Shown: in pieces, positions 42,639 to 59,534 of the stretch
Numbering within the stretch: position 1 is the first letter of the stretch
Layout: each line of letters starts with the position of its first letter
NCBI GenBank assembly: GCA_030706385.1
Contig: JAUZOQ010000003.1
Span: forward strand, 4,297 to 68,296
Direction of reading: 5' to 3'
Source: Bacteroidota bacterium
Lineage (GTDB): Bacteria > Bacteroidota > Ignavibacteria > Palsa-1295
Length of the DNA stretch: 64,000 nucleotides
Notes under the pieces: model-generated
Databases searched by the model: none
Seen by the model: the letters and a program-made list of their open reading frames with translations, nothing else
Told to the model about the DNA's origin: nothing
Translations under genes and position numbers: made by a program

Positions 42639-43811
42639 ATGAAGATCCTATTTATATTCGTTTTTTCCGTCTGTATCATAATCCCGGGATTTGCGCAGGA
42701 TACGACGAAGAAGAAATCACCATACGAAATAAAGAATCCGTCCATCAATGTCATTATTCATCCTCCGGGACAAAAAGATAATGCTAGGATCAATTTTGCC
42801 GCACAGTTTCCCGGTGCGAAGCCGCTACCCGAATCATTCTATGATAAACGCGAGAAGCATCTGGCAAACATCCGCCAGCTCACTTTCGAAGGCGAAAACG
42901 CCGAAGCGTACTTAAGCCCCGATGAGAAACATCTCGTCTTCCAGTCGCGCGGAAAAGAAGCGGGAGCCTGCGATCAGATCTACACAATGACTCTGGACGG
43001 AAAGAATGTCAAGCGCATCTCCACCGGATACGGAAGAACAACATGCGCGTATTACTTCCCTTCTAACGACAAGATCCTTTTCTCCTCGACACACGAAATG
43101 TACGGAGGCGAATGTCCGCCCGAACCTGATCACACAAAAGGCTATGTATGGCCGCTGTATAAAGGATATGACATCCACATTGCCGATACATCCGGAAAAC
43201 TTATCGGGAGGCTGACGCAGGATTCTCTTTTCTATGATGCTGAGACGACGATCTCTCCGACCGGAGATCGGATGGTCGTAACGAGTACCAGAAGCGGAGA
43301 TATCGATCTCTACTCCTGCAAACTCGATGGCACCGATGCAAAGCAATTAACGACGGAAGCCGGCTACGACGGCGGTGCATTCTTCTCACTCGATGGAAAG
43401 AAGATCGTCTACCGCGCCTCACGTCCCAAGGGAGACGAGCTGAAAGAATATCAAGAATTACTTAAGGAGGGGTTGATCCGTCCGAAGTCATTGGAGATCA
43501 TGGTCATGGATGCCGATGGAAGCAACAAGAAGCAAGTGACCGAGAACGGCAAAGCAAATTTTGCTCCGTTCTTTTTCCCAAGCGGAAAGAGAATCATCTT
43601 TGCTTCAAATATGGATGATCCGAAAGGACGAGAGTTCGATCTTTATGCCATCGATACTAACGGCAAACATTTGGAGCGCATTACCTATGCTGCAGGATTC
43701 GACGGATTTCCGATGTTCACAAAAGACGGCAAGCACTTAGTCTTCTGCTCGAATCGCAATGGCTCATACCCTGGAAATACGAATATCTTCATCGCGGATT
43801 GGGTAGAGTAA
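42639..43811 (+). CDS. TolB-like / PD40 (WD40-like) beta-propeller repeat protein, secreted
   Basis: Signal peptide MKILFIFVFSVCIIIPGFAQ. Repeated ..SPDEKHLVFQS.., ..SPTGDRMVVTSTRSGDIDLY.., ..DGKKIVYRASR.., ..DGKHLVFCSNRNG... Confidence 0.85.
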   Translation: MKILFIFVFSVCIIIPGFAQDTTKKKSPYEIKNPSINVIIHPPGQKDNARINFAAQFPGAKPLPESFYDKREKHLANIRQLTFEGENAEAYLSPDEKHLVFQSRGKEAGACDQIYTMTLDGKNVKRISTGYGRTTCAYYFPSNDKILFSSTHEMYGGECPPEPDHTKGYVWPLYKGYDIHIADTSGKLIGRLTQDSLFYDAETTISPTGDRMVVTSTRSGDIDLYSCKLDGTDAKQLTTEAGYDGGAFFSLDGKKIVYRASRPKGDELKEYQELLKEGLIRPKSLEIMVMDADGSNKKQVTENGKANFAPFFFPSGKRIIFASNMDDPKGREFDLYAIDTNGKHLERITYAAGFDGFPMFTKDGKHLVFCSNRNGSYPGNTNIFIADWVE

Positions 43812-43877: not shown

Positions 43878-46800
43878 TCAATCTGCGAATTTCGCCTCAA
43901 TGTTTTCAATATACATCTCGAAGGTAACCTTGCTGATCGCATCAGCGTTGTTCTCCGAAGCAGGTGCGCTCCTTCGGAATAAACCGGCTGTGGCAAAATT
44001 CAAAGTCAAGAGTTCTTTTCCGTCACCGTTATAATAGGCGAGCGAACCTCCCTTGTTGATGCCTTCAAGTTTCTTACCGGCAACAACGTCGAAATCATGA
44101 GCATACTGCTGCGGCACGGTGAAGACGAGTTTCGTTGCAGAAGAGCTCATTTTCATGCCGGCCGCTTTGCTTCCCTCCGACTTTGTCGGGCTACGTCCCA
44201 GAAGAGTCTTATAGAGATGCGTCGCACAATCACCCGAAGGATTTTTCATGCGATATTCCGGCGAGCCGAGTAGCGAAGCCTTCAATTGATCGATGCTCGC
44301 TCCGCCATTCAATACACCAAGCCATTCGGCAACTTCCGCAGAATTCGGCATTCTTCCGAGATATGTACCATAGTAATATCTGATCTGCCGCGTTCTATAC
44401 TCCGGACTCAGAATGAGTTGCGTGACGATCTGCACGCGCGATTGAGTAGCGTTATTAAGTCCATCTACTAAAGCGGCACTGCCTCCGTCGGCTGTTCTGC
44501 CCAAAAGATCTTGGTAGATCTCGCTCACATATCCGGCGTTCGTGGCACCACATTGCGTAGTAAAATATTCCTGCGAGCTGATTATTCCGATCAATACTTG
44601 TTCCGACCTGCCGCCTGCCTTCAAGATATTCAAATATGTATTCAATCCATTCGGTTCGGCCGGTCTGCGAAGATATGTTTGATATAAGCTGCCGATCAAC
44701 TTCGTGAAATATTCGTCGCTTCCGAGAATCGACTTAAGAACTTGTGAGCAATCGGAGGGATCGATCCCATTAGTCATTCCGGATCCCGGTGCATCCATTT
44801 TCTGCTTGATCGAGATCGCCTCGATCTTATTGACATGAGAAGCAGCTTCCTCGAAGCCATCCAACTTCAACCGGAAATTTGCCGGCATCCAATTCTTTTG
44901 TTTAGCGTCATCGGAGGGAAGTGTTTTCGGCGAATCGATCTTCATGAGATCGGCTGTCTCCGGAGAGAATGTTACCGTCATTTTCGCAGCATCCTTGGAA
45001 GCAGCATCGAGAGCAGGCATTCCAACCTCCGTGATAAGTCCGTGGTAAAAATTCAAGCGGGTCAGCTCTTTGAAGTCATAATTGGCAGAGACTATGGCTC
45101 CATCCTTCCTGCTATGTTTACTACTGAAGGAATTCTTGATCCAATCATACATTCCTTTCGACATGCCATCAGTGAATGTTAGGGTAATATCCTCGTATTT
45201 CACCCCGCCGATATGCTTCTTTGCGATATGCTCGGGCGCCATGCCTTCAGTACCGGCATTCCCAGTCGAAGGTCCGCCGTCAACCGATTGTACCAATCCA
45301 GCCATGATGCCGTCAAGCTCGATACCATATTTCCCTGCTGTGAAAGAGCGTTTATCTGCCGTCGGCGCTCCGGGCGACGTTCCGAGCGTGATAACAGCGG
45401 AGCTTCCCTGCCCCGGCTTTGGTGGCAGAATGGATTGCGGAAAAAGATCGAGATCGAAGTGGATCAGTACTTCGCCTTCAGCATTGAGATATTCTAAAGA
45501 GCCATGCTTGTAACTTGGTTTACCGGTATTCCCGTTTACGGCAAAATCCTCATGCCAATCGTAGAAATCCTTGGCATATTGAGAAGGTATCGAAACCGAA
45601 AGGTTGGGAAAATCGATATGCCCGGGCTCCTTCTGATAATCTCGCGCCTCGCCGATGTTATCGGTTGCAACCGATTGCTTAACGACAAGTGCTTCGATCT
45701 TATTGACGCGTGAGGAAGCATCATCCATTCCATCGATCTTCAACCGGAAGTTCGCCGGAAGCCACTTCTTTTGGATTTTGCCGTCTATCGCAAATTTTGA
45801 AACGTCCGCATTTCCAGAGCCCTTCTTATAGCGTATGATCTCCGGCGCAAATTTCAAATTCAGAAATCCCGGATCTTTCGAGGACCCATCGCATCCTGGA
45901 AATCCGATCTCCGTTACGAGAGCATCTTTGAATTCGCGACTGCTCTTGGAATCTCTCTTAAAATCAGCTGCATGGAGCTCGCCACTTTTGCGGGCACCCG
46001 TACTCTTGTCGAACGAGGCCTTCACCCACTTGTAGATCGAACCACTTACCGGAACAACTTGAATTCCGATCTGCCCGCCTTGATCGCCATCGCCTTGAAC
46101 ATCTCCTCCTTCAAGTTTCTGCACTAATCCCGCTTTTACGCCATCGAGATCCAGTTCAAAATTTCCGCTTACATACGATCTGCCGCTCTGTGTTTCATCG
46201 ACTTGACCTGAATTGTCTCCGAAGTCGCCCCAATCGATCCCGGCCTTATTGGCAAAGTACGCTTCCCACTTCCATCCGGAGAGATCTGCATTGACATCAT
46301 TTCGGCTTTCGGTAGATCCTGTATTCGGTGCTGCGCTCGTCGGAGGCATGAGAAGGCCGATAAGCATGAGTTCTGCTTTCTCTCCGCCAATCGTAGTCGG
46401 CACAAGCAGAGTCATCTGCTGAGCAGGCTGGCTCATTGTACCTTTCATCGATTTCATTTCACCTGCAAAATGCCAGATGACGGGCTGTACATCCATGCGC
46501 TCGTAGGTAAACTCGATCGACTCTGTTGCATGCGCACTCGTCTTGGCACCGGCAGGTGGTGGTTTATAACTCATCGGGAAACAATCGAACAAGTTATACC
46601 GGCGTGCTTCGCCTGCATCATCCTGCACGATGATACTTACATTCCTTCTCTTGGTTTTATCACTTGCCGTCGATCGGCTCCAATCATAAAATTCCTTCGT
46701 CCCGCTCCAATCTTTTGTAAGCGTGATCTTTCCGGGTTTTTGCCGACCGGGACGCAGGTGCGTATACATATCATCGCCGTCCTGATACTCGACAACTTCA

Positions 46801-49715
46801 TGCTCATGCTCAAGTCCTTCGACCGTGTGAATTCCGCCAACCATCACGCCATCGATCTCAACTGTGAACCTATGCGCAAGATTGAAATCCCCTTGCGTTT
46901 TTGTTGTGCCCTTAAGTTGGTCGCGGCTGAACTTCACTTTGCTCATTGCCGGCAAATCTTGGACCAGTGCTCCTCGTAATGCTCGCTCGCGATCGGAGAA
47001 GACGGGATCGTGAAGGATAGGATCTTTCACCGACTGATTGCTTTGCAGGATCTGCAAGGTCTGCGGTCCGATATTCGTGTTGAAGAATATCGATTCATTT
47101 CCGGATCCGCCAGCACCGCCCGAACTCTTTTCCGAAGATCGAAAAAGCCTGTGCGACTTATCCAAACCACGCAATACGACCGTAACCTTGGCACGGGTCG
47201 GAGTTCCATCAGGAAGGAACATGGTATATTTCATACAGAGACCGGCAAGGGTCATATCGGTACTACTCGATCTATCCCAATAAAACTTTACCTTCACTCG
47301 AGAGAACTTGCCATCCTCCACGCCGAGCCAGCGCAAGACGTGCTGCAGATCGGGCTTCACAGACTTCTGATCTTCAAACATATCGAACATCAATTCGACA
47401 TCGAGCGCCTCTCCCTCACCTGCAGTGAATTCTGTCGACGGTCTATCGCCCTCGGAATTCCTATGTTTTTGCCAGGGTACGGGTTTATCAATTGTGATCT
47501 CCTTCGGATTGTAATACGCCGTTATTGGCGAACCGCCGGTAAGAGAGCCGATCGTAAGCTTCGAAGGTGAAAGATCACTCGATCCGGGTGATCCCTGTTC
47601 GGCAGGAGAAGGTGGCGGCGGAGGATTCAGAAATGATGTTGCATCAAGGAAATTGTTTTCTTCGGGACAGAAAAGCATAGCATTCACTGCGCTTCCGCCT
47701 GCATCGGCGTAATTGAACGGTCCCTTTCCTGGAGTGAAGAAATCAAAATCCGTTTCTTGGTATTGAACTGCATAGCGAACTTCATTCGTATTCACTCCGC
47801 CGCCATCGGCAGCCGATATCTTTATTCCACCGCCGGAACCAGGAGCCTTTGAAGGTTCAATGAGATCGGGAGGAATATCAACCGATCCATCGCCAAGAGC
47901 AAATATCGGCGGCCCAGGTGCGATCTCGCCTTGTCCATTTCCGGTTGTACCCGGTGGGGTTGCGCCTCTGGTTGGAGGTATGCCTCGCGGCGTCCCCGTA
48001 GGTGTAAGTACCTGTACGGCAAGAGGAATAAAAGTGAATGCCGATGGATCGGGCCTTAGATAGACATCTGTCAGATTCGTGTTCTTTGGCCTGACGTCGG
48101 TGCTGCCTATACTCCCACCTGCTCCGCCACCACCGCCTCCGGAACCGACAGAAAAAGGTCCGCTCAAAGCCTTCACTGCATTACCCATTTTATCGGTTGC
48201 TCTAATTTGAATCACTCCCTGTGATGTTTGAAGATCCGATGGTACATTCCAAAGCAGTGATGGAGGTGCAGTCGCTCCGTTATCCGGAGGTGAAATGGTA
48301 GTTGGAAAAGATGTTCCGCCATCGGTTGAAAGAGTTGCGACGTAGTTACTGAGAGCATCATTATCGGATGCATCGAACTTGATCTGAAATTTCGATCCGG
48401 GTGCGATCATTTCTCCTCCGGCCGGAGATGTTATTCTGATCGTCGGAGACTTCGTATCAATGCCTTGGCCTTTTAGCTGGATCGTGATCGGACCGGCATC
48501 GGTGGCAATTTTTACCGATCCATCTGCTGAACCGATAGTCGTCGGCTTGAACACCAGGGAGAAGGTAGAACTAGCTCCAGGCGAAAGAACAAGAACTTCA
48601 GGCTGCTGGGAAATGCTGAATCCCTCATAAGAGCCTGCTCCCGATACTGCCGGCAATAATAAATTCAGTGTTCCCCGGCCGTTGTTGGTGATCGTTACCG
48701 GGCGGGCATCCGATGTCGTTCCGACCCGGACCGATCCGAAATCGAGAACCTGCGAACTCAGAATAAGATCTTTCAGCGGATCGCCGCCATCTCCGCTTTG
48801 GTCGCATTTCGGAGCAATAGAAAAAGTGTAAGGCACGGCCCAACCGTCATTTGTTACGACAAATGGATTACCGCTTTCGTCAAGAGCGCGAACACTCCAG
48901 ACGTAGGTCTTCCCTGCTTCGGGAAGAAAATATTCCGTCGGCCAGATCATATTGGTCATATTCAGCAGGTCGCGCTGGAATACTGCCCGCGCTCCGCGCA
49001 AAGCTGCGATCGGTGCCTGACCTGGAAAAACTTCGTAGATCGCAAAATGATATGTGACCGGCGACTGTGGTGCCGGAACAATTGGTGTCCACTGAAATAG
49101 CGTGATCGGCCGGCCGTCTTCCTTGCCGATAACATTATTATAGCCGAGCTTACAGAGAATCGTCTGGTTATCCGGCAAGATCAAGCTTGGTGGAGAATAA
49201 CTAAGGATGAGCGAACACCCTGTGCCCGGAGAATTCTTCGCTTCCCTACCGGTGGGCGCACCCGTCTTCGAATCAAGTTCTTGGACGTGGACGATGAGGC
49301 AGACTTGCCCATCGGGAATGCGGCCGGCTCTCTGCGAATTCTGATCAACGCCACTTTCGAAATGCACGGTCTGCAGAGGCACTAAGGTCTCGCCGTTGAA
49401 GACGTTTGTTCCGGGAGCGATCATTGTAACGGGAAGCTTTGCCGGCTGGCTGTAGGCAACCCGACTGCCGTTAAGTATGAACTCTACCCAGATCTTTGAT
49501 GGTATCGGTGAGGGCGCCGTACTGATGACAGTGACAAGAGCCGTGCTTGCGCGACTCTTCCAGTCAGAGAGAAATGCCGAAGGATTATTCAGAAATACCT
49601 GTGGCGTCTGAACGTTCGGTATTGTGCTCTGAGCATGCGGTGAACTGCATAGAAGCGAGAAAGCGACTAAGAAAAAAGCCGTTCGGTAGAGTCTCTGATA
49701 GTATTTCATAGGCAT
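43878..49715 (-). CDS. giant secreted protein: Ig-like domains + Gly/Pro linker + ~6 tail-tube-fold (CIS tube / T4 gp19-like) domains + 3 DUF4214 repeats
   Basis: ATG 49715 or 49709, signal peptide MKYYQRLYRTAFFLVAFSLLCSSPHAQS. Tube signature HRFTVEIDGVMVGGIHTVEGLEHEHEVVEYQDGDD..PGKITLTKDW. Duplicated modules GNFELDLDGVKAGLVQKLEGG / GKYGIELDGIMAGLVQSVDGG. DUF4214-type LYQTYLRRPAEPNGL, IYQDLLGRTAD, LYKTLLGRSP. No T9SS C-terminal domain. Confidence 0.85.
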   Translation of the reverse strand: MPMKYYQRLYRTAFFLVAFSLLCSSPHAQSTIPNVQTPQVFLNNPSAFLSDWKSRASTALVTVISTAPSPIPSKIWVEFILNGSRVAYSQPAKLPVTMIAPGTNVFNGETLVPLQTVHFESGVDQNSQRAGRIPDGQVCLIVHVQELDSKTGAPTGREAKNSPGTGCSLILSYSPPSLILPDNQTILCKLGYNNVIGKEDGRPITLFQWTPIVPAPQSPVTYHFAIYEVFPGQAPIAALRGARAVFQRDLLNMTNMIWPTEYFLPEAGKTYVWSVRALDESGNPFVVTNDGWAVPYTFSIAPKCDQSGDGGDPLKDLILSSQVLDFGSVRVGTTSDARPVTITNNGRGTLNLLLPAVSGAGSYEGFSISQQPEVLVLSPGASSTFSLVFKPTTIGSADGSVKIATDAGPITIQLKGQGIDTKSPTIRITSPAGGEMIAPGSKFQIKFDASDNDALSNYVATLSTDGGTSFPTTISPPDNGATAPPSLLWNVPSDLQTSQGVIQIRATDKMGNAVKALSGPFSVGSGGGGGGAGGSIGSTDVRPKNTNLTDVYLRPDPSAFTFIPLAVQVLTPTGTPRGIPPTRGATPPGTTGNGQGEIAPGPPIFALGDGSVDIPPDLIEPSKAPGSGGGIKISAADGGGVNTNEVRYAVQYQETDFDFFTPGKGPFNYADAGGSAVNAMLFCPEENNFLDATSFLNPPPPPSPAEQGSPGSSDLSPSKLTIGSLTGGSPITAYYNPKEITIDKPVPWQKHRNSEGDRPSTEFTAGEGEALDVELMFDMFEDQKSVKPDLQHVLRWLGVEDGKFSRVKVKFYWDRSSSTDMTLAGLCMKYTMFLPDGTPTRAKVTVVLRGLDKSHRLFRSSEKSSGGAGGSGNESIFFNTNIGPQTLQILQSNQSVKDPILHDPVFSDRERALRGALVQDLPAMSKVKFSRDQLKGTTKTQGDFNLAHRFTVEIDGVMVGGIHTVEGLEHEHEVVEYQDGDDMYTHLRPGRQKPGKITLTKDWSGTKEFYDWSRSTASDKTKRRNVSIIVQDDAGEARRYNLFDCFPMSYKPPPAGAKTSAHATESIEFTYERMDVQPVIWHFAGEMKSMKGTMSQPAQQMTLLVPTTIGGEKAELMLIGLLMPPTSAAPNTGSTESRNDVNADLSGWKWEAYFANKAGIDWGDFGDNSGQVDETQSGRSYVSGNFELDLDGVKAGLVQKLEGGDVQGDGDQGGQIGIQVVPVSGSIYKWVKASFDKSTGARKSGELHAADFKRDSKSSREFKDALVTEIGFPGCDGSSKDPGFLNLKFAPEIIRYKKGSGNADVSKFAIDGKIQKKWLPANFRLKIDGMDDASSRVNKIEALVVKQSVATDNIGEARDYQKEPGHIDFPNLSVSIPSQYAKDFYDWHEDFAVNGNTGKPSYKHGSLEYLNAEGEVLIHFDLDLFPQSILPPKPGQGSSAVITLGTSPGAPTADKRSFTAGKYGIELDGIMAGLVQSVDGGPSTGNAGTEGMAPEHIAKKHIGGVKYEDITLTFTDGMSKGMYDWIKNSFSSKHSRKDGAIVSANYDFKELTRLNFYHGLITEVGMPALDAASKDAAKMTVTFSPETADLMKIDSPKTLPSDDAKQKNWMPANFRLKLDGFEEAASHVNKIEAISIKQKMDAPGSGMTNGIDPSDCSQVLKSILGSDEYFTKLIGSLYQTYLRRPAEPNGLNTYLNILKAGGRSEQVLIGIISSQEYFTTQCGATNAGYVSEIYQDLLGRTADGGSAALVDGLNNATQSRVQIVTQLILSPEYRTRQIRYYYGTYLGRMPNSAEVAEWLGVLNGGASIDQLKASLLGSPEYRMKNPSGDCATHLYKTLLGRSPTKSEGSKAAGMKMSSSATKLVFTVPQQYAHDFDVVAGKKLEGINKGGSLAYYNGDGKELLTLNFATAGLFRRSAPASENNADAISKVTFEMYIENIEAKFAD
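44187..44753 (-). other. domain: three DUF4214-type repeats inserted in tube module B (aa ~1662-1850)
   Basis: ..IGSLYQTYLRRPAEPNGLNTYLNILKAGGRSEQVLIGIISSQEY.., ..VSEIYQDLLGRTADGGSAALVDGLN....LILSPEY.., ..YYGTYLGRMPNSAEVAEWLGVLNGGASIDQLKASLLGSPEY... Confidence 0.65.
44796..45344 (-). other. domain: two-lobed tube module B, first part (aa ~1465-1647). It resumes at 43881-44141 after the DUF4214 insertion.
   Basis: FTAGKYGIELDGIMAGLVQSVDGG..KKHIGGVKYEDITLTF..FYHGLITEVGMPALDAASKDAAKMTVTFSPE..KNWMPANFRLKLDGFEEAASHVNKIEAISIKQ. Confidence 0.6.
45432..46178 (-). other. domain: two-lobed tube module A (aa ~1187-1435)
   Basis: YVSGNFELDLDGVKAGLVQKLEGG...FAPEIIRYKKGSG...KKWLPANFRLKIDGMDDASSRVNKIEALVVKQ...NLSVSIPSQYAKDFYDWHEDF...GSLEYLNAEGEVLIHFDLDL. 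Confidence 0.6.
46482..46889 (-). other. domain: canonical tail-tube (Pvc1/Afp1/T4 gp19, TIGR02241-like) segment (aa ~950-1085)
   Basis: FNLAHRFTVEIDGVMVGGIHTVEGLEHEHEVVEYQDGDDMYTHLRPGRQKPGKITLTKDWSGTKEFYDW...VSIIVQDDAGEARRYNLFDCFPMSY..ESIEFTYERMDV. Confidence 0.65.
47157..47534 (-). other. domain: CIS tube protein N-terminal-like segment (aa ~735-860 of the giant protein)
   Basis: ITAYYNPKEITIDKPVPWQKHRNSEGDRPSTEFTAGEGEALDVELMFDMFEDQKSVKPDLQHVLRW. Confidence 0.5.
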
Positions 49716-49774
49716 GATCTTGACAGTACAGTACAATCCCTCTTCTAAAGACGTTTCAACAATACTTTCTGTGA

Positions 49775-49883: not shown

Positions 49884-51515
49884 TCAGTTCGTAAGGAATC
49901 TGGTCTGCTTGATCTTTCCCTGATCTCCGGCAAACGGGCCTTCTCCGATACGATAGAGTTGAATATCAGGGACAAGTGTTTCGGGATACTCACGCCATGC
50001 TTCACGGAAATCAGCATTGAGTTTTACCAGCTTCGGAATGATCGAATCTGCAAAACGCTTCGAGAGCTCGGCACTCGGCTCACCGGCAACTTCGAAGAGG
50101 AAGCGCGGACGCACTGCTCCATTTGTCCCTTCGGCAAGAGCAAGGCAGAAGGAATTCGTGATCTGGGCAAGCTCCGTGTCCTGATAGAGGCACTGCTCGA
50201 TATCTTCGGGATAAATGTTCGCGCCCATAACGCTGATCGTATAATCGCGGCGGCCATAGATCCAAAGAAATGGAAGGCGTACATTCCCATCTCCACACTG
50301 TGCGCGAAGTTGCTTCAGATCGATACCTAATTTCTGAAGTCGCTTTTCCATTTCGTCAGAAGTCATCACGCCTCCGGCGTCATGTACATTATATCTGATG
50401 CGCGGAGAGAGCAGCGTGTTGCGCGAGATCGTGAATATCACTTCGTTATTCTCATTGACTTCGATGTGATGCATGAGCGGATTGTACTGAAACACCATCG
50501 GCAGACGTGAATCCGGTCCGAAGAGTGCAAGCCGTAGATCATCACGCTCTCTGGCAAGACGGCGTAAGGCTACGGAAATAGGAGTTTCTCCGGCTATTCC
50601 AATTTCGAGATCCGTTGCGCCGTAACCGCTATAGACTTTTTCGAAATGCCGCAGTAGATAATCACGCAAACCTTCTGACATTCCTTCGCCACCTGCGAGA
50701 CCATAGAGGGTGTAATCCTCAAGCGGAAATCCTTCGGCCTCGGCAACATCGATCAGATGCTTGAGAAATGGTGGATAGCCGGTGATGAGATACGTATACC
50801 CTGTTCCGAAGAATCGCAGTGTGTGCAGGATCTTTGGAATGTCAGGGCCTGTATTTTTCACGACGCCATTCTTTTGCAAAGCGATGCCCATGTTAATTCC
50901 GGTTGCCCATGCCCCCATGCTGAATCCGTTGATCGTGACCCAAGGTTTGTTTCCATAACAATAGGAAGCGAAGTAGCTGATGAAGACGTGGCTTTCTTTG
51001 CGTTCTTTCCAGCTGCGCACCCAGTTATATGGCGTACCTGTCGAGCCCGACGATTCGTCGATCATCGTTCCGTGTTTGAAGAAGGATCCTTCTACACAGC
51101 GCTCGGCAGTTGGATATTTCTTAATGTACGATTCTTTATCCGTTTCCGGCATTGCTGATCCGGATTGGCTATTGACGTATGCTTCATATGCAGGTATGTT
51201 TCGCACTGCACGATAGTACGCTCTGCGAGCGCGGACTTCCGATGCCCACACGAGATATGAAGGCGGAAGTGTTTTGAACACTGCAAGAAAGGTCGGATAT
51301 GTTGCGCAGGAAATCTTCAGGAGCCAATCGATCGGCGTCTGAATCGCAAACGAAAGTCGTTCGCGAAGTGAGGGCGTCGTCCTTCGGGCAGTGCTTCGTT
51401 CTTCCTGTGCAACCTGTGTGATGGGTCGATTCGGAATCAGTACTTCCTGCCGTTTAGCAGCTGTCGGATGGATAGATGCTTCTGCTTGTACCCTTGCATG
51501 TATTTGCGAATTCAT
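49884..51515 (-). CDS. phenylacetate-CoA ligase / coenzyme F390 synthetase-like adenylate-forming enzyme
   Basis: ATG 51515 with AAGGAGA 5 nt upstream. Acyl-adenylate motif DESSGSTGTPYNW, YGATDLEIG, and C-terminal domain with GDQGKIKQTRF. Confidence 0.85.
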   Translation of the reverse strand: MNSQIHARVQAEASIHPTAAKRQEVLIPNRPITQVAQEERSTARRTTPSLRERLSFAIQTPIDWLLKISCATYPTFLAVFKTLPPSYLVWASEVRARRAYYRAVRNIPAYEAYVNSQSGSAMPETDKESYIKKYPTAERCVEGSFFKHGTMIDESSGSTGTPYNWVRSWKERKESHVFISYFASYCYGNKPWVTINGFSMGAWATGINMGIALQKNGVVKNTGPDIPKILHTLRFFGTGYTYLITGYPPFLKHLIDVAEAEGFPLEDYTLYGLAGGEGMSEGLRDYLLRHFEKVYSGYGATDLEIGIAGETPISVALRRLARERDDLRLALFGPDSRLPMVFQYNPLMHHIEVNENNEVIFTISRNTLLSPRIRYNVHDAGGVMTSDEMEKRLQKLGIDLKQLRAQCGDGNVRLPFLWIYGRRDYTISVMGANIYPEDIEQCLYQDTELAQITNSFCLALAEGTNGAVRPRFLFEVAGEPSAELSKRFADSIIPKLVKLNADFREAWREYPETLVPDIQLYRIGEGPFAGDQGKIKQTRFLTN

Positions 51516-51643
51516 GTCAATCTCCTTTGATTTTGTACGTAAATAATTACGGTACAAAAATGGCAAAGTTGCATGCCGGACTTGTCACGGATTTGTCACC
51601 ATCCTATAACAAGACTGTCGAAATCGCGGGGAAACTGAATTCT

Positions 51644-52459
51644 TTAGGGAAGCATTGACCGGTAGCGCTGATATCCTGCTGTATTGAGCTGGGCCTCGGA
51701 TGGCTCGGGCAAGTTGGCAGCTTTGGCCTGCGCAACCGTTGCATTCAGACGATCCTGAGAAGGAGGATGCGTTGAAAAAAGTCTGGTAAGCTCGGGCGGT
51801 GGCTGGCTACCACCTGTATTGAGTGTCTTGATCATGAAGTACTTAATGGCTGCCGGATACCACGGCCTTCCAGAAAGTTGATAGAGATCGGTAAAGGAGT
51901 TCGCATCGGCTTCGCGCTCATCGGCCTGGCTGAATTGAAGCATGGCAAGGGTCTCCCCTATTTGTGCGACCAATCCTGAGTCTTGCCCGAGAGCCATTTG
52001 CGTGACCCTCTCAAGGCCATATTGCTTCGTCATCTGTTGCGTGGAATGTCGGTGGTCAGCATGGGTGATCTCATGCGCTAAGATTCCGGCAAGCGTTGCC
52101 TCATTATCCACGTATTTCATTAGTCCGGTGTAGACGTAGATCGGTCCGCCCGGAAGAGTAAAAGCGTTCACCGTTTTATCGTCATGAATAATAGTGACGG
52201 TATAGTTAAAATCCTTATTCGTCACATTCGGAGACTGAATGATGCGATTGACGATACTTTGAACATAGTTTCGTAGTGCGGGATTATTCAGAATTGGATA
52301 ATGCGCGGGATCTTTAGCGATCTCTGCCTGCATTTGTTGGCCCAATTGCAGATCCTGTTGTTTCGAATACAAATTGACTCCGCTCGAACAGGAAAGCGCG
52401 GTAAAACCCAAAACCAGAAAAAGGGATATGATTGCGAGGCGAGATCTGTGAAAATTCAT
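51644..52459 (-). CDS. M48-family zinc metalloprotease lipoprotein
   Basis: ATG 52459, MNFHRSRLAIISLFLVLGFTALSCSSG lipobox. VNAFTLPGGPIYVYTGL, HEITHADHRH (HExxH), downstream EREAD. Confidence 0.85.
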   Translation of the reverse strand: MNFHRSRLAIISLFLVLGFTALSCSSGVNLYSKQQDLQLGQQMQAEIAKDPAHYPILNNPALRNYVQSIVNRIIQSPNVTNKDFNYTVTIIHDDKTVNAFTLPGGPIYVYTGLMKYVDNEATLAGILAHEITHADHRHSTQQMTKQYGLERVTQMALGQDSGLVAQIGETLAMLQFSQADEREADANSFTDLYQLSGRPWYPAAIKYFMIKTLNTGGSQPPPELTRLFSTHPPSQDRLNATVAQAKAANLPEPSEAQLNTAGYQRYRSMLP

Positions 52460-52562
52460 TATCGTACTAATATTAGGTGAATTACAGGGGAGATCTGGAT
52501 TGAGACAACAAGCCTGAGATATTTTGAGTTGCGAGAATGAGCGGCCGCCTCCAGACCGCCAA

Positions 52563-55500
52563 CTATCGAGATCGCACTGCCCGCTCTGTCGTTGCATCGC
52601 TCGAAGGAGAGCCGTCATCGTTGGTGCCATTCAAGACTACGCGATAGAGATATGTTCCATTGGCAACATCGTTACCGACCTCATCCCTTCCGTCCCATTC
52701 GACGGAATTCAAACCAGTACGCTGCTTCGATGGATCGAGATGAAGCGTTCTGATCTTTCTTCCAGCCACAGTATAGATGACAACTTTAACATCGGCTTGT
52801 GATCCAGCTTTCAAAATGAAGGTGAACCATGTTTTATCTTTAAAGGGATTCGGATAATTCATAACATGATCCAATCCATTCGTACTCGAAACGACGAATT
52901 CATCGCTTATCGTATCGGCCCGATTTCCACTGGCATCGTGACCCATTGCCGTAAATAAATAGCGGCCTGCTTCCAGAGGGGTCAGAGGAGTAATATCGAG
53001 CGTAGCCTGAATTGTACCGGTAGGCTGAGTCGTGAATTTCGTTGCGAACGTATCGTTCTTGATCGTACCGGAGAAGACGATCGGCCCTTTCGTACCGAAG
53101 AGCGCTTGCAGAATTCCGCTGATCGCCGCCGAATCGGCGACGCGCAGAGGGCTGTTGTCGGAAAGTCTGATACCGATCTCTACTTTGCTCGAGACATAAT
53201 CGCCGCTATTAATATGCCTGCCATCGAATACCATATCCAACCGCGGCTTCGTGCTATCGCGAGCAACGGTGTAAGATGTGTTTGCCGAATTATTGAAGAG
53301 TAGCTGTTCATTGAGAACACCGCCGGGATTTACTGTTGCCGTAAGATTGACATTGCCCTGGAAGCCGGATGTTGGGATCGAATGGGAGAATGATGCTGAG
53401 GAATGTCCGGGGAAGTTTGCAATCGTATCGGTTGCCAGCACTACGGAATTGCCGTGAAAGTTCTGTACTAGTTGAACCGGAACACGCTGCGCGTCGATAC
53501 AGGTCGTGTTCTCTATCCGATACGTTACCGTCACAGGATTGCCTTCAAGAACAGTTTTCGGACTTACGGAGATCAAACTATCGCCGGTATTGAACTCAGG
53601 GGCAGCATCATATTCGAGTTCAATCGCAGTAAGGCGCGGACTAACTGAGGAAGCCGAACCTCGCTGAAAATTCATTTGCACAAATAGCTTATTATCGAAG
53701 AGCGCCGGCTGGAAAGAGATATCGGCGCTCGTGCCTTGCGATGCATCGGCAACAATAACTGTATCGATCACTCCGGAATTCTTCCGCTCTCCTAAAACGA
53801 TAAACTTGATCGTCGAGCCGGTCGCAATATTTTGAGCATTCCACTTCAGCTTCCCGTACCCTGTTGCAACGGCAGTCAGCGGTGTCTGCGCCAGTCCTGA
53901 TGTTCCGAATACAACCATAGTATCGAAAAGACTGACTCCTGCGCTACGATCGGGACTGAATTTCTCTTTCGCCTGACCAGGAGCAAGTCCCTTGCGGCCG
54001 ATAAGGGCATACGAGCCGAATGTCGAAAGAGTGTTCATCCCGTTAAGCGATCCGAGCGACTGCAGAGCCTGTGTTACTTTCGGACTGTAAGAAAAACTCG
54101 GGATCAGTGGAGCAAAATTCGTCAAGGCAATCACACGCCTTCCATCCGGAATTCCATTGATGACGGCAACAAGACTATCGGCAAGAATTTTTCCAATCGA
54201 ATCATTATCGGTTTTCAGAAACTCGAACGTTTGCTCGATGCCGCTGGAATCTGCCGTCATCTCATGCAATGTGAGAGCAACAAATTGGCCGTTGATATAT
54301 CGTGTCTCCTTGCTTTTTCCGTTTATGAGAAATAGGCCGACAGGCAATCCGCTTCCCTGCACATTCGTATCCAGAAGTCCGCGAGCTTCTACTTCATAGC
54401 GAACAGTATCTTTGAGTGGAATAAAGAGTGCGCCATCGGCCGGATCGTCTTCTAATCCTGAAATGATGGTGGAAGCAAGCTGATCTCCGGTAGTGTACGA
54501 AAATTCCGAACGAGCACCGGCAGGCTTCGGCGCCTCAAGGGATAGGCTCTGTGCCTGCCAGCCTGACTGTACTCCCGAAGGCAGCAGTACTCGCGAACGC
54601 CACCACAATACATGCGATGAGGGATTCGGCAGCACTGTGCGTGCGAAGGCACGCTGGAAGAAAAGTCCTGATCCCTGCATGCCGGGGAAATCCCGGAGGA
54701 CTCCTGAATTGAACGCACTGGTCGTATCGAATTGCAGCTCGACACTTGTGGGTCCCGAAACATTAGCCGGAAGCAGCAAAATGAAATTTACCGAGTCAGT
54801 CCGAATATCACAGAAATATTTGCTGCCCTCCGGAGGATAGAACGGTGTTCCCGAATTGCCGTTAACTAAGAATGAAACAGACGCTTCGTTATCGTTTTCA
54901 TTTGTTTCGGCAAATTGATTGTCATAATCTACAAAAATCCGAAGTGTGTTGGAGCCAACAGCGAACGAATCCAGCGAGAAGACTGCTCCGGTCGTGGCAA
55001 GATTCTCCAGCGTCTCGATCGTATCAATGATCCCTATCTGCCTGTTCCCCGGCTGCTCATCGGTAATACGCACATGAACGGGACTCGTGATTCCGAATCC
55101 GAAGTTGCGGATCGTTGCCTTCACCGTTACCTGAGAATCGTTAACGGAGAAAACCGTTCGCGGAGTACCGTCTTTCCCCGAAAGTGTGATGTCGGAAGCA
55201 GTAATGTTGAATTCCGGTTGTGGCCGAAGGTCGAAGCCCATTGCAGCATCGCCTAGAATCGAATACTCGTAGAGCGAATTGTGCTGAGTGAACGTCCCCA
55301 TCCATGGCTGGACGACCGATTCAATAAATTTCGCAAAGGTGAGTATGAGCGGGTAATTTACTTTGTGAGCTCCGGTCGAAGACATCCGGACATCGGCTGA
55401 ATCTCCACGCAGATAGTTGAATCCACGTGCCGACATATTGAAATCATAACTCACATCACCGAACCCCGTCGTTCCATAGGCCAGAATTGCACCTGCTTCT

Positions 55501-58418: not shown

Positions 58419-58503
58419 TCGTTTCGCGTTCGACACAATAATCAGCACAATGAGAACCGATTCGATGTTAAAATAATTAACAGGGGGCGGAAATATGACC
58501 TCT

Positions 58504-59397
58504 CTAATCCCCTAACTTCGCCTTTGCATCTTCATAGTAATTTTGGTGGGCCGGATCGAGATACTCAAGCTTCTGATAATAGAGATCTTTATTCTCCTTG
58601 AACCACTTTCCAAAATCGGCAAACTCTGTGTATTTCGCTTCGAAAAAAGTCTTGTAATACACGCTGCGATCGATCGTCGAACCCGATCGCTTCATACTCA
58701 CGAGCGTATCGACTACCTTCGCCAGTTCAGCCCTCGCCTCATCCTCTTTCGTAGCGATGTTATCGAGTACTTTATAATGATACGCCCAGACGATATCGCG
58801 GATGCTGCGCGTTCCGGCATTCATCACATCCTCTATATATCCGAATCGCGAGAAGGCTCCCGATGAAGTGATCAGCCTGTCCCAACCTACGACATTCTGC
58901 GCTGCATTGGCAATAAGGGCGACTTGCTGCGCCTGCTGAAATGCTGCAGAACCACTGTTGGATTCGTAAGAGTCGAAATCCAATCCGATAATGATATAAG
59001 CGTAGTAATCGAGGATGGATTCGAGATCTCTGTAATTCATACTATGTTGCAGGATCTGACCGCGGCTATACCCAAAAGAGATCTTATCGTCAAAAAAGCG
59101 AGCCATGATCGTCGTTTCGCCGCTTTTATAGAGGGGCCGTTTGCTCTGAACAAAGATCTGAGCGCCCGTGGTGAGGATATTAAAGTTGATGGTTGCCTGA
59201 ATTTTGTCTCCGGTAAAATTTGTTGTCCATGAGTAGGCATTGAGATATGCCTCGACATCCTGAGTAAAGGTATCCCAATTTTTTCGTTCTTCATCGGAAA
59301 GATTTTGGAGATTCACGCTGACCTTGCAGGCAAGTTCCTGAGCAGCTACCGTCTTTGCGCAGAGCAAGAGAGCGAGGATGAGGAGATAACGTTTCAT
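58504..59397 (-). CDS. DUF4835 family protein (T9SS-associated PorD-like)
   Basis: ATG 59397, signal MKRYLLILALLLCAKTVAAQ. QELACKVSVNLQ, IFVQSKRPLY, ILDYYAYIIIGLDFDSY, VGWD, WAYHYKVLD, FFEAKYTEF. Confidence 0.8.
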   Translation of the reverse strand: MKRYLLILALLLCAKTVAAQELACKVSVNLQNLSDEERKNWDTFTQDVEAYLNAYSWTTNFTGDKIQATINFNILTTGAQIFVQSKRPLYKSGETTIMARFFDDKISFGYSRGQILQHSMNYRDLESILDYYAYIIIGLDFDSYESNSGSAAFQQAQQVALIANAAQNVVGWDRLITSSGAFSRFGYIEDVMNAGTRSIRDIVWAYHYKVLDNIATKEDEARAELAKVVDTLVSMKRSGSTIDRSVYYKTFFEAKYTEFADFGKWFKENKDLYYQKLEYLDPAHQNYYEDAKAKLGD

Positions 59398-59534
59398 ATT
59401 AGTGAGCGTCAGTCTATATATTTCGTAATTTTGGCTTGCGCCGCGGGCTGCATGAGTGGAACGGAGATCCGATCCTTGCGTACAAATACCCGGCGTTAAT
59501 AGTACGACAAAAATAAGCAAAAGATTCTACCATT

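What the first reader, a model, noticed from the sequence alone, without database searches (positions are those of the whole stretch)
43878..49715. Secreted 1,945-aa polyprotein of about six tandem tail-tube-fold domains, with no contractile-injection machinery nearby
Seen in sequence: the protein starts with a signal peptide (MKYYQRLYRTAFFLVAFSLLCSSPHAQS). Two Ig-like domains follow at aa ~325-530: LDFGSVRVGTTSDARPVTITNNGRGTL.., and a ..STDGGTSF..WNVP..IQIRATD.. module that also occurs three times in the T9SS cargo at 12226-14295. Next is a GSGGGGGGAGGS plus Pro/Gly-rich linker (aa ~531-735). Four segments then each read like contractile-injection-system or phage tail-tube proteins. (1) aa ~735-860: YYNPKEITIDKPVPWQKH..FTAGEGEALDVELMFDMFE, like a CIS tube N-terminal domain. 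(2) aa ~950-1085: HRFTVEIDGVMVGGIHTVEGLEHEHEVVEYQDGDD..PGRQKPGKITLTKDW.GTKEFYDW, the classic Pvc1/Afp1/T4 gp19-type signature. (3) aa ~1187-1435 and (4) aa ~1465-1647 plus 1866-1952: two copies of a two-lobed tube module. Established knowledge: tube subunits of this family are normally short cytoplasmic proteins that stack as hexameric rings inside a sheath. Inference: 1+1+2+2 = six tube folds on one Sec-exported chain could close into a single-chain pseudo-hexameric ring, or act as a repurposed surface scaffold. The 64-kb window encodes no sheath, baseplate, spike, tape-measure or AAA+ ATPase. Unlike five neighbouring secreted proteins, this one has no T9SS C-terminal sorting domain.
Basis: partly seen in the sequence, partly recalled or inferred. 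Interest (0 to 1): 0.85.

Follow-up and report, generated by a model that had tools for sequence, protein, structure and literature searches.

The report
Exported fusion of injection-system tube proteins
A bacterium of the Bacteroidota group makes a 1,945-residue exported protein that strings together the three kinds of inner-tube protein of a phage-tail-like injection machine, far from any such machine, and its largest building block belongs to a broad, unstudied family of tube proteins carrying export signals.

Summary
ORF 43878-49715 (-) encodes a signal peptide, an uncharacterised N-domain, two Ig-like domains and a Gly/Pro linker. Six tail-tube folds follow.

- **T1:** Cis7/Pvc7 initiator type (CIS_tube, 5e-17).
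- **T2:** Cis1/Pvc1 tube type (gp19, 7e-26).
- **T3 and T4:** two two-lobed modules. T4 is interrupted by three DUF4214 repeats.

No sheath, baseplate, spike or cap gene lies in the 64 kb window or within 10 kb of six relatives' genes, four of them embedded in long contigs.

The single-chain six-fold ring idea is not supported. Orthologues carry four or three tube folds. The two-lobed module folds like tandem tail-tube proteins that build trimeric rings. The AlphaFold2 model of T1-T3 shows no confident inter-domain packing.

New finding: the two-lobed module is a large free-standing family of about 310-350 aa.
- Leaderless members sit in the tube position of CIS clusters.
- Members with Sec or twin-arginine leaders are orphans.
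- About 60% of the diverse representatives carry such leaders.

The polyprotein is therefore a rare fusion (about ten relatives) of a whole CIS tube stack moved outside the cytoplasm. "Secreted" is overstated; only export across the inner membrane is inferred. Assembly and function remain unknown.

The parts
43878..49715 (-). Whole ORF, 1945 aa plus stop. The public gene model starts two codons later, at MKYYQ, giving 1943 aa.
49632..49715 (-). Sec-type signal peptide, aa 1-28. The likely signal peptidase I site is PHA|QS, which would expose an N-terminal Gln.
   Evidence: Sequence. Conserved leaders with a small residue followed by Gln in the orthologues. Bacteroidetes Q-rule (PMC5837995, PMC10653852).
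48786..49625 (-). N-terminal domain, aa 31-310, with no family assignment. It is shared with giant proteins P0007 and P0012, which have no tube domains.
   Evidence: no Pfam or NCBIfam hit; 70% identical in P0002
48462..48785 (-). Ig-like domain 1, choice-of-anchor D / ASH-HYDIN type, aa 311-418.
48141..48461 (-). Ig-like domain 2, aa 419-525. It is related to three repeats in the T9SS cargo at 12226-14295.
47565..48140 (-). Gly/Pro-rich linker, aa 526-717. It contains a conserved sub-segment with a VgrG/gpD-like motif, RYAVQYQETDFDF (aa 644-660).
47130..47564 (-). T1: tube-initiator type tube fold (CIS_tube PF19266; Cis7/Pvc7/Afp7 N-domain), aa 718-862.
   Evidence: 5.2e-17; PDB 9qgl_7A 6e-6, Pvc7 7e-5; L007 CIS_tube gene 5e-11
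46896..47129 (-). Conserved T1-T2 connector, aa 863-940, with the motif DPVFSDRERxLR.
   Evidence: 50-73% identity to orthologues; predicted helical at low confidence
46482..46895 (-). T2: Cis1/Pvc1/Afp1-type inner-tube fold (gp19, TIGR02241), aa 941-1078.
   Evidence: 6.6e-26; (PlPVC1 tube 4e-12, Pvc1 3e-10, Afp1 4e-8)
46182..46481 (-). Conserved T2-T3 connector, aa 1079-1178, with the motifs MTLLVPTTIGGEKAxLMLIGLLMPP and ADLSGWKW. Partly predicted as beta strands.
45360..46181 (-). T3: first two-lobed (tandem) tube module, aa 1179-1452.
44766..45359 (-). T4, N-terminal part: lobe 1 and the start of lobe 2 of the second two-lobed module, aa 1453-1650.
   Evidence: (gp19 2.2e-9)
44136..44765 (-). 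Three DUF4214 repeats, aa 1651-1860, inserted in the lobe-2 hairpin of T4.
43881..44135 (-). T4, C-terminal part: the rest of lobe 2, aa 1861-1945. This is the end of the protein, and there is no T9SS sorting domain.
42639..43811 (+). Convergent neighbour: an exported TolB-like PD40 beta-propeller of 390 aa, adjacent to the polyprotein gene in every locus examined.

Best explanation
**Shown.**
- The gene encodes a Sec-exported envelope protein. It fuses one copy each of the three kinds of tube-layer protein of a contractile injection system.
- The N-to-C order is: a Cis7-type initiator domain (T1), a Cis1/5-type tube domain (T2), then two tandem-tube modules (T3, T4).
- These follow an N-terminal beta-rich domain, two Ig-like domains and a flexible linker.
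- It is a chromosomal gene kept in one syntenic position among housekeeping genes, with no injection machinery nearby.
- Its tandem-tube modules come from a family whose leaderless members are the tube proteins of a CIS lineage. Members of that family with leaders are exported orphans.

**Inferred.**
- The protein has been moved out of the cytoplasm and works without a sheath.
- Several chains, three or six, associate through the tube domains into stacked pseudo-hexameric rings. This would give a short, sheath-less tube stub.
- The stub would be held in the periplasm or at the cell surface by the N-terminal and Ig-like domains.
- The DUF4214 insert on the last lobe would act as a surface or glycan-binding decoration.
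- The N-to-C domain order matches the order in which these layers stack in solved CIS particles.
- What the stub does (conduit, scaffold, fibre seed) is not known.
For: **Domain identities.**

**Paralogy of T3 and T4, and the DUF4214 insertion.**

**Two-lobed fold.** The T3 model has pLDDT 81 and pTM 0.79. Its full-length Foldseek matches are tandem tail-tube proteins: DT57C/T5 pb6, SH-Ab15497 and P74-26. Its single-lobe matches are CIS tube proteins and Hcp. P74-26 and T5 tube proteins form trimeric pseudo-hexameric rings (PMC10034513).

**Match to one CIS cluster.** The window protein matches all three tube-lineage genes of cluster L007: CIS_tube gene 5e-11, gp19 tube 9e-7, two-lobed protein 3e-133.

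**Leader versus context in the free-standing family.**
- Metagenome contigs: 45 leaderless copies have sheath, cap or related genes on the same contig. The 5 twin-arginine copies have none.
- In the earlier set of loci, 8 of the 11 copies lacking a sheath gene nearby clearly carry a Sec or Tat leader, 2 are leaderless and 1 was unclear.
- Of 120 free-standing representatives (at 50% identity) closest to the window protein, 74 have Sec- or Tat-like leaders.
- TIGR01409 scores above its cutoff for P0046 and P0053.

**Export of the window protein.** Conserved leader and Q-rule site (PMC5837995). Choice-of-anchor D Ig domain. DUF4214 occurs in a secreted protein reported to bind O-antigen (preprint 10.64898/2026.09.02.748959).

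**Context.** Synteny without CIS genes in six homologue loci, four on contigs of 99-595 kb and none in the window.

**Constraint.** Tube domains and connectors are 44-73% identical between orthologues. dN/dS is 0.09-0.29 where synonymous sites are not saturated. GC content is native: 50.3% in the gene against 49.0% in the window.
Against: - No oligomer could be modelled. The monomer model of T1-T3 has pTM 0.41 and T1 is below pLDDT 45, so ring formation is untested.
- T1 is eroded in P0003 and P0036 (about 25 N-terminal residues missing) and absent in P0037. This fits poorly with a strict initiator role.
- The lobe-2 hairpin of the last module is variable: deleted, or replaced by DUF4214.
- Tube modules also occur fused to hydrolases, as in P0052. 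That could mean they are only a generic module.
- Signal peptides were judged by rule of thumb and one HMM, not by a dedicated predictor.
- Whole genomes could not be inspected, so a CIS locus elsewhere in the same genome is not excluded.
- The final location (periplasm, outer membrane or surface) is unknown.
Confidence: 0.5

Rival explanations
1. The tube folds are no longer assembly units. They serve as rigid beta-sandwich spacers or binding modules in a long, monomeric envelope or adhesin-like protein, as Ig or fibronectin domains do.
For: - There is no confident inter-domain packing in the model.
- T1 is truncated or lost in some orthologues, and the hairpin of the last lobe is deleted or replaced.
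- The architecture (leader, Ig-like domains, low-complexity linker, DUF4214) is typical of surface proteins.
- The module is also fused to subtilase, amidase and phospholipase D domains in P0052, and to Ig-like DUF4352 in P0144 and P0159.
Against: - The modules stay 40-50% identical to genuine CIS tube proteins, with many invariant positions.
- The connectors between tube domains are as conserved as the domains themselves.
- The three tube layers are kept in their physical stacking order.
- Free-standing exported copies consist of nothing but the tube module, which is hard to explain as a spacer.
Confidence: 0.25
2. One reading: the six tube folds of one chain close on themselves into a single-chain pseudo-hexameric ring.
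For: - There are exactly six tube-type folds in this protein and in P0002.
- The long connectors could allow closure.
Against: - Most orthologues have four folds and one has three.
- The tandem module is homologous to CIS tube proteins and folds like tube proteins that form trimeric rings (PMC10034513).
- T1, T2 and the lobes belong to different tube layers, which stack axially in known particles.
- The T1-T3 model has pTM 0.41.
Confidence: 0.06
3. It is a decorated structural subunit of an ordinary contractile injection system encoded elsewhere in the same genome.
For: - All tube domains are of CIS type.
- The complete genomes could not be inspected.
Against: - A conserved, cleavable leader would remove the protein from the cytoplasm, where CIS particles assemble.
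- The gene sits in a conserved housekeeping context in every locus, with no CIS gene within 10 kb, or within 43 kb and 14 kb in the window.
- In the free-standing family, leaders and CIS context were not found together among copies with a recognisable leader; 3 copies of unclear leader status had CIS genes nearby.
Confidence: 0.07
4. It is a periplasmic or surface decoy. As a mimic of a tube end, it would bind and block incoming phage tails or T6SS/CIS tubes.
For: - This is an idea only. The protein has exported tube-end-like modules, including an initiator-type domain, and variable accessory domains.
- DUF4214 has been linked to a phage-shielding surface protein.
Against: - No match to any PADLOC defence model.
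- No defence-island context: the neighbours are housekeeping or T9SS genes.
- No experimental precedent was found.
Confidence: 0.04

Closest known systems
Inner-tube lineage of extracellular and cytoplasmic contractile injection systems: Cis1/Pvc1/Afp1 tube, Cis5 adaptor, Cis7/Pvc7/Afp7 initiator
   Same: - T1 matches CIS_tube and the Pvc7/Afp7 N-domain.
- T2 matches gp19/TIGR02241 and the Pvc1/Afp1 tube proteins.
- T3 and T4 are 40-50% identical to proteins in the tube position of CIS clusters.
   Different: - All layers are fused in one chain, behind a signal peptide and Ig-like domains.
- No sheath, baseplate, spike, cap or ATPase is nearby.
- No LysM was detected after T1.
- The NCBIfam CIS1 and CIS5 equivalog cutoffs are missed by a wide margin (53-55 bits against 220-260).
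Tandem-domain tail-tube proteins of siphophages (T5/DT57C pb6, P74-26 TTP, SH-Ab15497 major tail protein)
   Same: - Two tube-type beta-sandwiches in one chain of about 300 aa.
- Best full-length structural matches are E 9e-7 to 2e-4, TM 0.45-0.53 in the PDB, and up to 0.65 in BFVD.
- These proteins build trimeric pseudo-hexameric rings (PMC10034513).
   Different: - Sequence identity is only 6-14%.
- There was no sequence match in 50,697 phage genomes or in IMG/VR contigs.
- At sequence level each lobe is of the gp19/CIS type.
- The gene is cellular, not viral.
Free-standing two-lobed 'phage tail protein' family (about 305-355 aa, no curated model)
   Same: - T3 and T4 are members by sequence. 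There are 599 representatives at E <= 1e-30 and 887 clusters at E <= 1e-10.
- Many members are exported, like the window protein.
   Different: - Those proteins are a single module. The window protein carries two modules plus T1, T2, an N-terminal domain, Ig domains and DUF4214.
- About ten such polyproteins were found.
Evolved (extended) Hcp and VgrG of type VI secretion
   Same: A tube or hub fold carrying extra domains. A short VgrG/gpD-like motif is present at aa 644-660.
   Different: - Those proteins are cytoplasmic, leaderless and loaded into a sheathed tube.
- This one has a leader and no T6SS context.
- The Hcp/TssD match is only marginal.

Membership tests
Phage_T4_gp19 / TIGR02241 tail-tube superfamily | Profile match above the curated cutoff | tested here: met
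   PF06841 scores 140.6 bits (cutoff 28.2) with 3 stretches. TIGR02241 scores 129.5 bits (cutoff 62.4). T2 alone scores 91.2 bits.
Phage_T4_gp19 / TIGR02241 tail-tube superfamily | Tube-type beta-sandwich fold | tested here: met
   Single lobes of the T3 model match Streptomyces CIS tube protein, Hcp1, and the AlgoCIS, PVC and AFP tube proteins at TM 0.54-0.66, normalised to the target. T2 is modelled at pLDDT 70-80. T1 is not confidently modelled.
CIS1 / CIS5 inner-tube proteins (NCBIfam equivalogs NF053769, NF053770) | Score above the equivalog cutoff | tested here: not met
   53.3 and 54.7 bits against cutoffs of 220 and 260.
Cis7/Pvc7/Afp7 tube initiator (CIS_tube PF19266) | Profile match above the cutoff over the N-terminal tube domain | tested here: met
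   62.5 bits (cutoff 27), covering profile positions 23-152 of 158. PDB matches: 9qgl_7A 6e-6, Pvc7 7e-5, Afp7 0.04.
Cis7/Pvc7/Afp7 tube initiator (CIS_tube PF19266) | C-terminal extension beyond the tube domain, as in the solved 227-229 aa initiators, one of which is named a peptidoglycan-binding protein | tested here: not met
   No LysM or peptidoglycan-binding hit anywhere in the protein. The CIS_tube gene of cluster L007 is also only 153 aa, so this feature may not be universal.
Contractile injection system (eCIS, T6SS, phage tail) as a gene system | Sheath, baseplate, spike, cap or ATPase genes linked to the tube gene | tested here: not met
   None in the 64 kb window. None within 10 kb in six homologue loci, four on contigs of 99-595 kb. 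The rest of the genome was not testable.
Contractile injection system (eCIS, T6SS, phage tail) as a gene system | Tube subunit made and assembled in the cytoplasm, so no export signal | tested here: not met
   A conserved Sec-type leader with a Q-rule cleavage site. Judged by sequence rules, not by a dedicated predictor.
Tandem-domain tail-tube proteins (T5 pb6 / P74-26 type) | Two tube domains in one chain | tested here: met
   T3 model has pTM 0.79. Full-length Foldseek hits: 8hrg, 8xan_A, 5ngj_A, 8ed0_A.
Tandem-domain tail-tube proteins (T5 pb6 / P74-26 type) | Trimeric pseudo-hexameric rings that stack into a tube | not testable with these tools
   Only monomer prediction is available and no coordinates are returned. 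This needs multimer prediction or EM.
Tandem-domain tail-tube proteins (T5 pb6 / P74-26 type) | Detectable sequence homology, or a phage genome context | tested here: not met
   6-14% identity in the structural alignments. No PDB sequence hit for T3. No hit in phage genomes or viral contigs.
T9SS cargo | C-terminal sorting domain (Por_Secre_tail or type B) | tested here: not met
   No hit. The C-terminus is the last part of tube lobe T4b. Four neighbours do have the domain.
Free-standing two-lobed tube family (uncurated) | Full-length similarity over both lobes | tested here: met
   T3 is 37-48% identical to 59 members. The window protein scores 3e-133 against P0275. T4 plus the C-terminus matches the family consensus to its end.

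The most novel reading that the evidence does not exclude
Exported tube-family proteins form a previously unrecognised class of sheath-less assemblies outside the cytoplasm. The class would include Sec- and Tat-targeted two-lobed proteins in many phyla, an Hcp with a signal peptide lying 0.6 kb downstream of one of them, and this polyprotein. In this reading the polyprotein is the envelope-anchored nucleator (initiator, adaptor and first tube rings in one chain). A tube, conduit or fibre would be built on it in the periplasm or on the cell surface.
Probability: 0.15. Interest if true: 0.9.

Novelty: new variant of a known kind. Interest (0 to 1): 0.75.

Why it matters
Tail-tube proteins are known as cytoplasmic parts of phage tails, tailocins, eCIS and T6SS, always working inside a sheath. 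This case shows one lineage relocated outside the cytoplasm, apparently more than once:
- as single tandem modules with Sec or twin-arginine leaders in Acidobacteriota, Armatimonadota, Chloroflexota, Bacillota, Desulfobacterota and other phyla;
- as a rare Bacteroidota/Ignavibacteriota fusion that joins initiator, tube and tandem-tube layers on one chain.

If these proteins still self-assemble, they would be a new kind of envelope or extracellular tube built from phage-tail parts. They could also serve as a compact scaffold for engineering.

Even if they do not assemble, "phage tail protein" is a misleading annotation for hundreds of cellular exported proteins. It can inflate prophage and CIS counts in metagenomes.

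Tried and rejected
- **Exact-sequence lookup.** Looking up the 1945-aa translation found nothing, because the public gene model starts two codons later. P0001 worked.
- **Second word-seeded search.** The exhaustive search was needed.
- **Leader classification.** My first motif-based classification of leaders failed on 130 of 238 proteins. I replaced it with alignment-based N-terminal extension lengths.
- **Genome scan.** The first alignment (A2) was too diverse for the genome scan.
- **Viral searches.** IMG/VR contigs and phage genomes gave nothing.
- **PDB sequence search with T3.** No hits.
- **PADLOC.** No hits.
- **Structure of the four-tube core.** The prediction was too weak to address ring closure: pTM 0.41, with T1 unmodelled because its alignment is shallow. 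The full six-fold region is 1228 aa, above the 1200-aa limit, so it was not attempted.
- **dN/dS against P0002.** Synonymous sites are saturated in most segments.
- **Shared neighbour test.** I tested whether propeller genes next to orphan exported tube genes are related to the PD40 neighbour. They are not.
- **Literature.** Seven full-text searches found no description of exported tail-tube proteins or of tandem-tube CIS. The library is incomplete, so this is weak evidence of novelty.
Full report
**1.

The minus-strand ORF 43878-49736 is open for 1952 codons from a TTG. From the ATG at 49715 it gives 1945 aa (MPMKYYQRLY...). A public MAG contig (GCA_030706725.1, "Bacteroidota bacterium") is 99.79% identical to the window over 19.3 kb. 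It carries the same ORF with six nucleotide differences and one amino-acid change, so the long ORF is not an assembly accident. The gene's GC content (50.3%) is that of the window (49.0%).

**2. Architecture**

*Signal peptide.* Residues 1-28 are a classical leader: basic residues, the hydrophobic core TAFFLVAFSLLC, then PHA|QS. Nearly all full-length orthologues have a similar leader ending in a small residue followed by Gln: NG|QS, FG|QI, NA|QL, FS|QV. This is the Bacteroidetes "Q-rule" for signal peptidase I substrates (PMC5837995, PMC10653852). The Cys in the leader is not conserved, so a lipoprotein is unlikely.

*N-terminal region.*
- aa 31-310 has no Pfam or NCBIfam match. It is the best-conserved part (70% identity to P0002). 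It also heads two giant proteins that lack tube domains, P0007 and P0012.
- aa 315-418 is a choice-of-anchor D / ASH-type Ig domain.
- aa 419-525 is a second Ig-like module.
- A Gly/Pro-rich linker follows (aa 526-717).

*Tube folds.*

| Segment | Residues | Evidence |
|---|---|---|
| T1 | 718-862 | CIS_tube 5.2e-17; resembles the N-domain of solved tube initiators: PlPVC1 chain 7A 6e-6, Pvc7 7e-5, Afp7 0.04 |
| T2 | 941-1078 | gp19 6.6e-26; resembles inner-tube proteins: PlPVC1 4e-12, Pvc1 3e-10, Afp1 4e-8 |
| T3b | within 1311-1440 | gp19 9.5e-6 |
| T4a | within 1441-1650 | gp19 2.2e-9 |
| T3a, T4b | | silent when scanned alone |

T3 (1176-1440) aligns with T4 (1441-1650) joined to the last 85 residues at 32% identity, E 2e-37. 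The three DUF4214 repeats (aa 1651-1860, 3e-19) are therefore an insertion inside lobe 2 of T4.

An AlphaFold2 model of T3, built with 59 homologues, is confident (pLDDT 81.4, pTM 0.79) and shows two beta-sandwich lobes. The count of six tube folds is correct.

**3. What the two-lobed module is**

An exhaustive HMMER search with aa 718-1650 against 1.84 billion representatives gave 4345 hits, 599 of them at E <= 1e-30. About ten hits resemble the polyprotein. From about rank 9 onward the hits are free-standing proteins of roughly 300-350 aa. Each matches both T3 and T4 at 40-50% identity. A second search seeded with one of them (P0048) found 887 clusters at E <= 1e-10. Where they are named at all, they are called only "phage tail protein". 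Pfam sees one gp19 domain in them. NCBIfam has no model that reaches its cutoff.

The T3 model aligns over its whole length with tandem-domain tail-tube proteins:
- DT57C/T5 pb6 (8.6e-7 and 1.6e-4);
- SH-Ab15497 major tail protein (9e-7, TM 0.53);
- P74-26 tail-tube protein (2e-4);
- many siphophage major tail proteins of about 300-340 aa in BFVD (TM up to 0.65).

Single lobes match CIS tube proteins and Hcp. P74-26 and T5 tube proteins form trimeric, pseudo-hexameric rings (PMC10034513). At sequence level the family is cellular. There was no hit in 50,697 phage genomes or in IMG/VR contigs.

**4. Two kinds of free-standing members**

Members differ by N-terminus and by genomic context.

*Leaderless copies* start "MPITADKRGYVAG...". 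They lie in CIS clusters, in the tube position. In L007 the gene order is Pvc16-type cap, sheath, two-lobed protein, 128-aa gene, sheath, gp19 tube, 1490-aa gene, CIS_tube gene. In the metagenome scan, 45 leaderless copies had sheath, cap or the linked 128-aa gene on the same contig. Another 24 had none visible, mostly on contigs of 1-2 kb.

*Copies with leaders.*
- All 5 copies with twin-arginine leaders had no CIS gene on their contig, including contigs of 20.8 and 11.3 kb.
- In the earlier set of loci, 11 copies had no sheath gene in the sequence available around them. Eight of these clearly carry a Sec or Tat leader, two are leaderless and one was unclear.
- Among the 120 free-standing representatives closest to the window protein, 43 have Sec-like leaders, 31 have Tat-like leaders, 32 have none and 14 are unclear.
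- The Tat HMM TIGR01409 scores above its cutoff for two of the members scanned.

These are rule-of-thumb calls and need a dedicated predictor.

**5. The polyprotein as a fused tube stack**

The window protein matches all three tube-lineage genes of the L007 cluster: CIS_tube gene 5e-11 (T1), gp19 tube 9e-7 (T2) and the two-lobed protein 3e-133 (T3, T4). The N-to-C order is initiator, tube or adaptor, then tandem tube. From established knowledge of AFP and PVC particles, these layers stack in that order from the baseplate outwards.

The connectors are as conserved as the domains (41-73% between orthologues) and are partly predicted as beta strands:
- T1-T2 connector: DPVFSDRERxLR.
- T2-T3 connector: MTLLVPTTIGGEKAxLMLIGLLMPP and ADLSGWKW.

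**6. Relatives and context**

About ten relatives were found: P0001-P0006, P0036-P0039 and P0041. Those that carry a taxon label are named Bacteroidota, Candidatus Kapaibacterium or Ignavibacteriota. Only one further polyprotein appeared among 197 relatives in JGI metagenome contigs.

Architecture varies:
- P0002 has the same six folds plus DUF4214.
- P0003, P0004, P0005, P0006 and P0036 have T1, T2 and one tandem module. In P0003 and P0036, T1 lacks its first ~25 residues.
- P0037 lacks T1 and ends in DUF922.
- The single module of P0036 and P0037 is closer to T4. That of P0003 and P0004 is closer to T3.

In every locus examined the gene lies next to a convergent, exported TolB-like PD40 propeller of about 390 aa. 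In most loci a cysteine-dioxygenase / MacB-FtsX block lies on the other side. The wider surroundings are housekeeping genes, with no CIS gene within 10 kb. Four of these loci are embedded in contigs of 99-595 kb.

In the window the gene has 43 kb on one side and 14 kb on the other. That sequence contains biosynthetic genes, T9SS cargos, a PorU-like C25 peptidase, PorD, a BepA-like M48 peptidase and ABC/HlyD transport genes. It contains no sheath, baseplate, spike, cap or AAA+ gene.

**7. Mechanism**

*Shown:* an exported, chromosomally stable, constrained fusion of CIS tube layers, away from any CIS.

*Inferred:* the protein acts outside the cytoplasm without a sheath, and most likely oligomerises through its tube domains. 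Two stoichiometries would work:
- **Trimer.** Each tandem module closes a pseudo-hexameric ring, and T1 plus T2 could share a third ring.
- **Hexamer.** T1 and T2 each form a ring, and each tandem module contributes two rings.

The N-domain and Ig domains would tether the stub. DUF4214 would decorate the last lobe; a secreted RTX-DUF4214 protein is reported to bind O-antigen (preprint 10.64898/2026.09.02.748959).

I could not test assembly. Only monomer models are available, no coordinates are returned, and the T1-T3 model is weak (pLDDT 59.5, pTM 0.41).

The main rival is that the tube folds have become passive spacers. This is supported by the erosion of T1, the variable last hairpin, and fusions of the module to hydrolases such as P0052. 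The single-chain ring, a distant-CIS subunit and a decoy role are less likely, for the reasons listed under the rival explanations.

**8. Comparison and novelty**

By profile and fold the domains belong to the gp19/CIS tube superfamily and to CIS_tube. They fail the CIS1 and CIS5 equivalog cutoffs, and they lack the system context and cytoplasmic location that define CIS tube subunits.

The tandem module works like T5 or P74-26 tube proteins in fold, but it is not a sequence member of those families. No curated family covers it. Seven full-text searches found no description of exported tail-tube proteins or of tandem-tube CIS. The library is incomplete, so this is only weak evidence.

I class it as a new variant of a known kind: tail-tube proteins exapted for a role outside the cytoplasm, with this polyprotein as their most elaborate form.

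**9. Verdict**

The finding is real and unusual. The broader result is a large, uncharacterised set of exported tube proteins. Interest is 0.75.

Noticed in passing
L080:9656-10915 and L080:11471-12088: A twin-arginine-leader two-lobed tube protein lies 0.6 kb upstream of a 205-aa protein with a full T6SS_HCP domain (2e-28). That protein has its own Sec-type leader (MKIKYVAGLIALTVMCLAALKPTQGQ). A 1509-aa CARDB protein follows. No sheath gene lies on the 20.8 kb stretch. Export of tube-family proteins may therefore extend to Hcp.
   Followed up: partly
L007:7961-18883; also L018, L084, L087, L095 and about 40 short metagenome contigs: A CIS lineage, abundant in soil metagenomes, has a leaderless tandem (two-lobed) protein of about 310 aa in the tube position. 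It lies between two sheath genes, and some clusters carry two paralogues side by side (L084, L095). I found no description of a tandem-tube CIS.
   Followed up: partly
window 47736-47786 (aa 644-660): The motif RYAVQYQETDFDF, in the linker upstream of T1, is hit by both the VgrG (TIGR03361, 0.004) and Phage_GPD (0.18) profiles at equivalent profile positions. It is conserved in six orthologues. It may be a relic of a spike or hub domain, which would extend the stacking-order parallel. The evidence is too weak to call.
   Followed up: partly
P0052 (2774 aa), P0144, P0159, P0037, P0040, P0049, P0294: The gp19-type tube module (two-lobed in most of these proteins; single gp19 domain in P0040) is fused to very different partners:
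- subtilase, peptidoglycan amidase, PG-binding and phospholipase D domains (P0052);
- Ig-like DUF4352 (P0144, P0159);
- DUF922 (P0037);
- Kazal inhibitor domains (P0040);
- methyltransferases (P0049, P0294).

In L093, two methyltransferase genes lie directly upstream of an exported copy.
   Followed up: no
window 42639-43811 (+): An exported TolB-like PD40 propeller of 390 aa lies convergent and immediately adjacent to the polyprotein gene in every locus examined. Propeller genes next to orphan free-standing copies are unrelated to it. This may be only synteny.
   Followed up: partly
window 48786-49625 (aa 31-310); L002:3458-7768 (P0007); P0012: The N-terminal domain has no family assignment, yet it is the most conserved part of the protein. 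It also heads 1436-aa and 1690-aa proteins with no Pfam domains at all. In L002 one of these lies just upstream of the polyprotein gene.
   Followed up: no
window 51644-59520 (-): A run of envelope and T9SS genes lies upstream: a BepA-like M48 peptidase, an unusually long (1961 aa) PorU/PorU2-like C25 sortase homologue with CARDB and a FlgD_ig/CTD-like end, and PorD (above its cutoff).
   Followed up: partly
window 49884-51566 (-): A 560-aa ORF directly upstream of the polyprotein has no Pfam family. It has only marginal similarity to acyl-CoA / o-succinylbenzoate-CoA ligases. It replaces the CDO_I / MacB-FtsX block found at this position in the other loci.
   Followed up: no
alignment A2, columns about 1610-1650 (lobe-2 hairpin of the last tandem module): The hairpin segment 'xxVGExRDYxKEPxxxE' varies in the last tandem module. 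It is deleted in P0003 and P0036, replaced by DUF4214 x3 in the window protein and P0002, and retained in P0004, P0005, P0006, P0037 and P0041. It is also retained in the internal module T3. This may mark the distal end of a stack.
   Followed up: no
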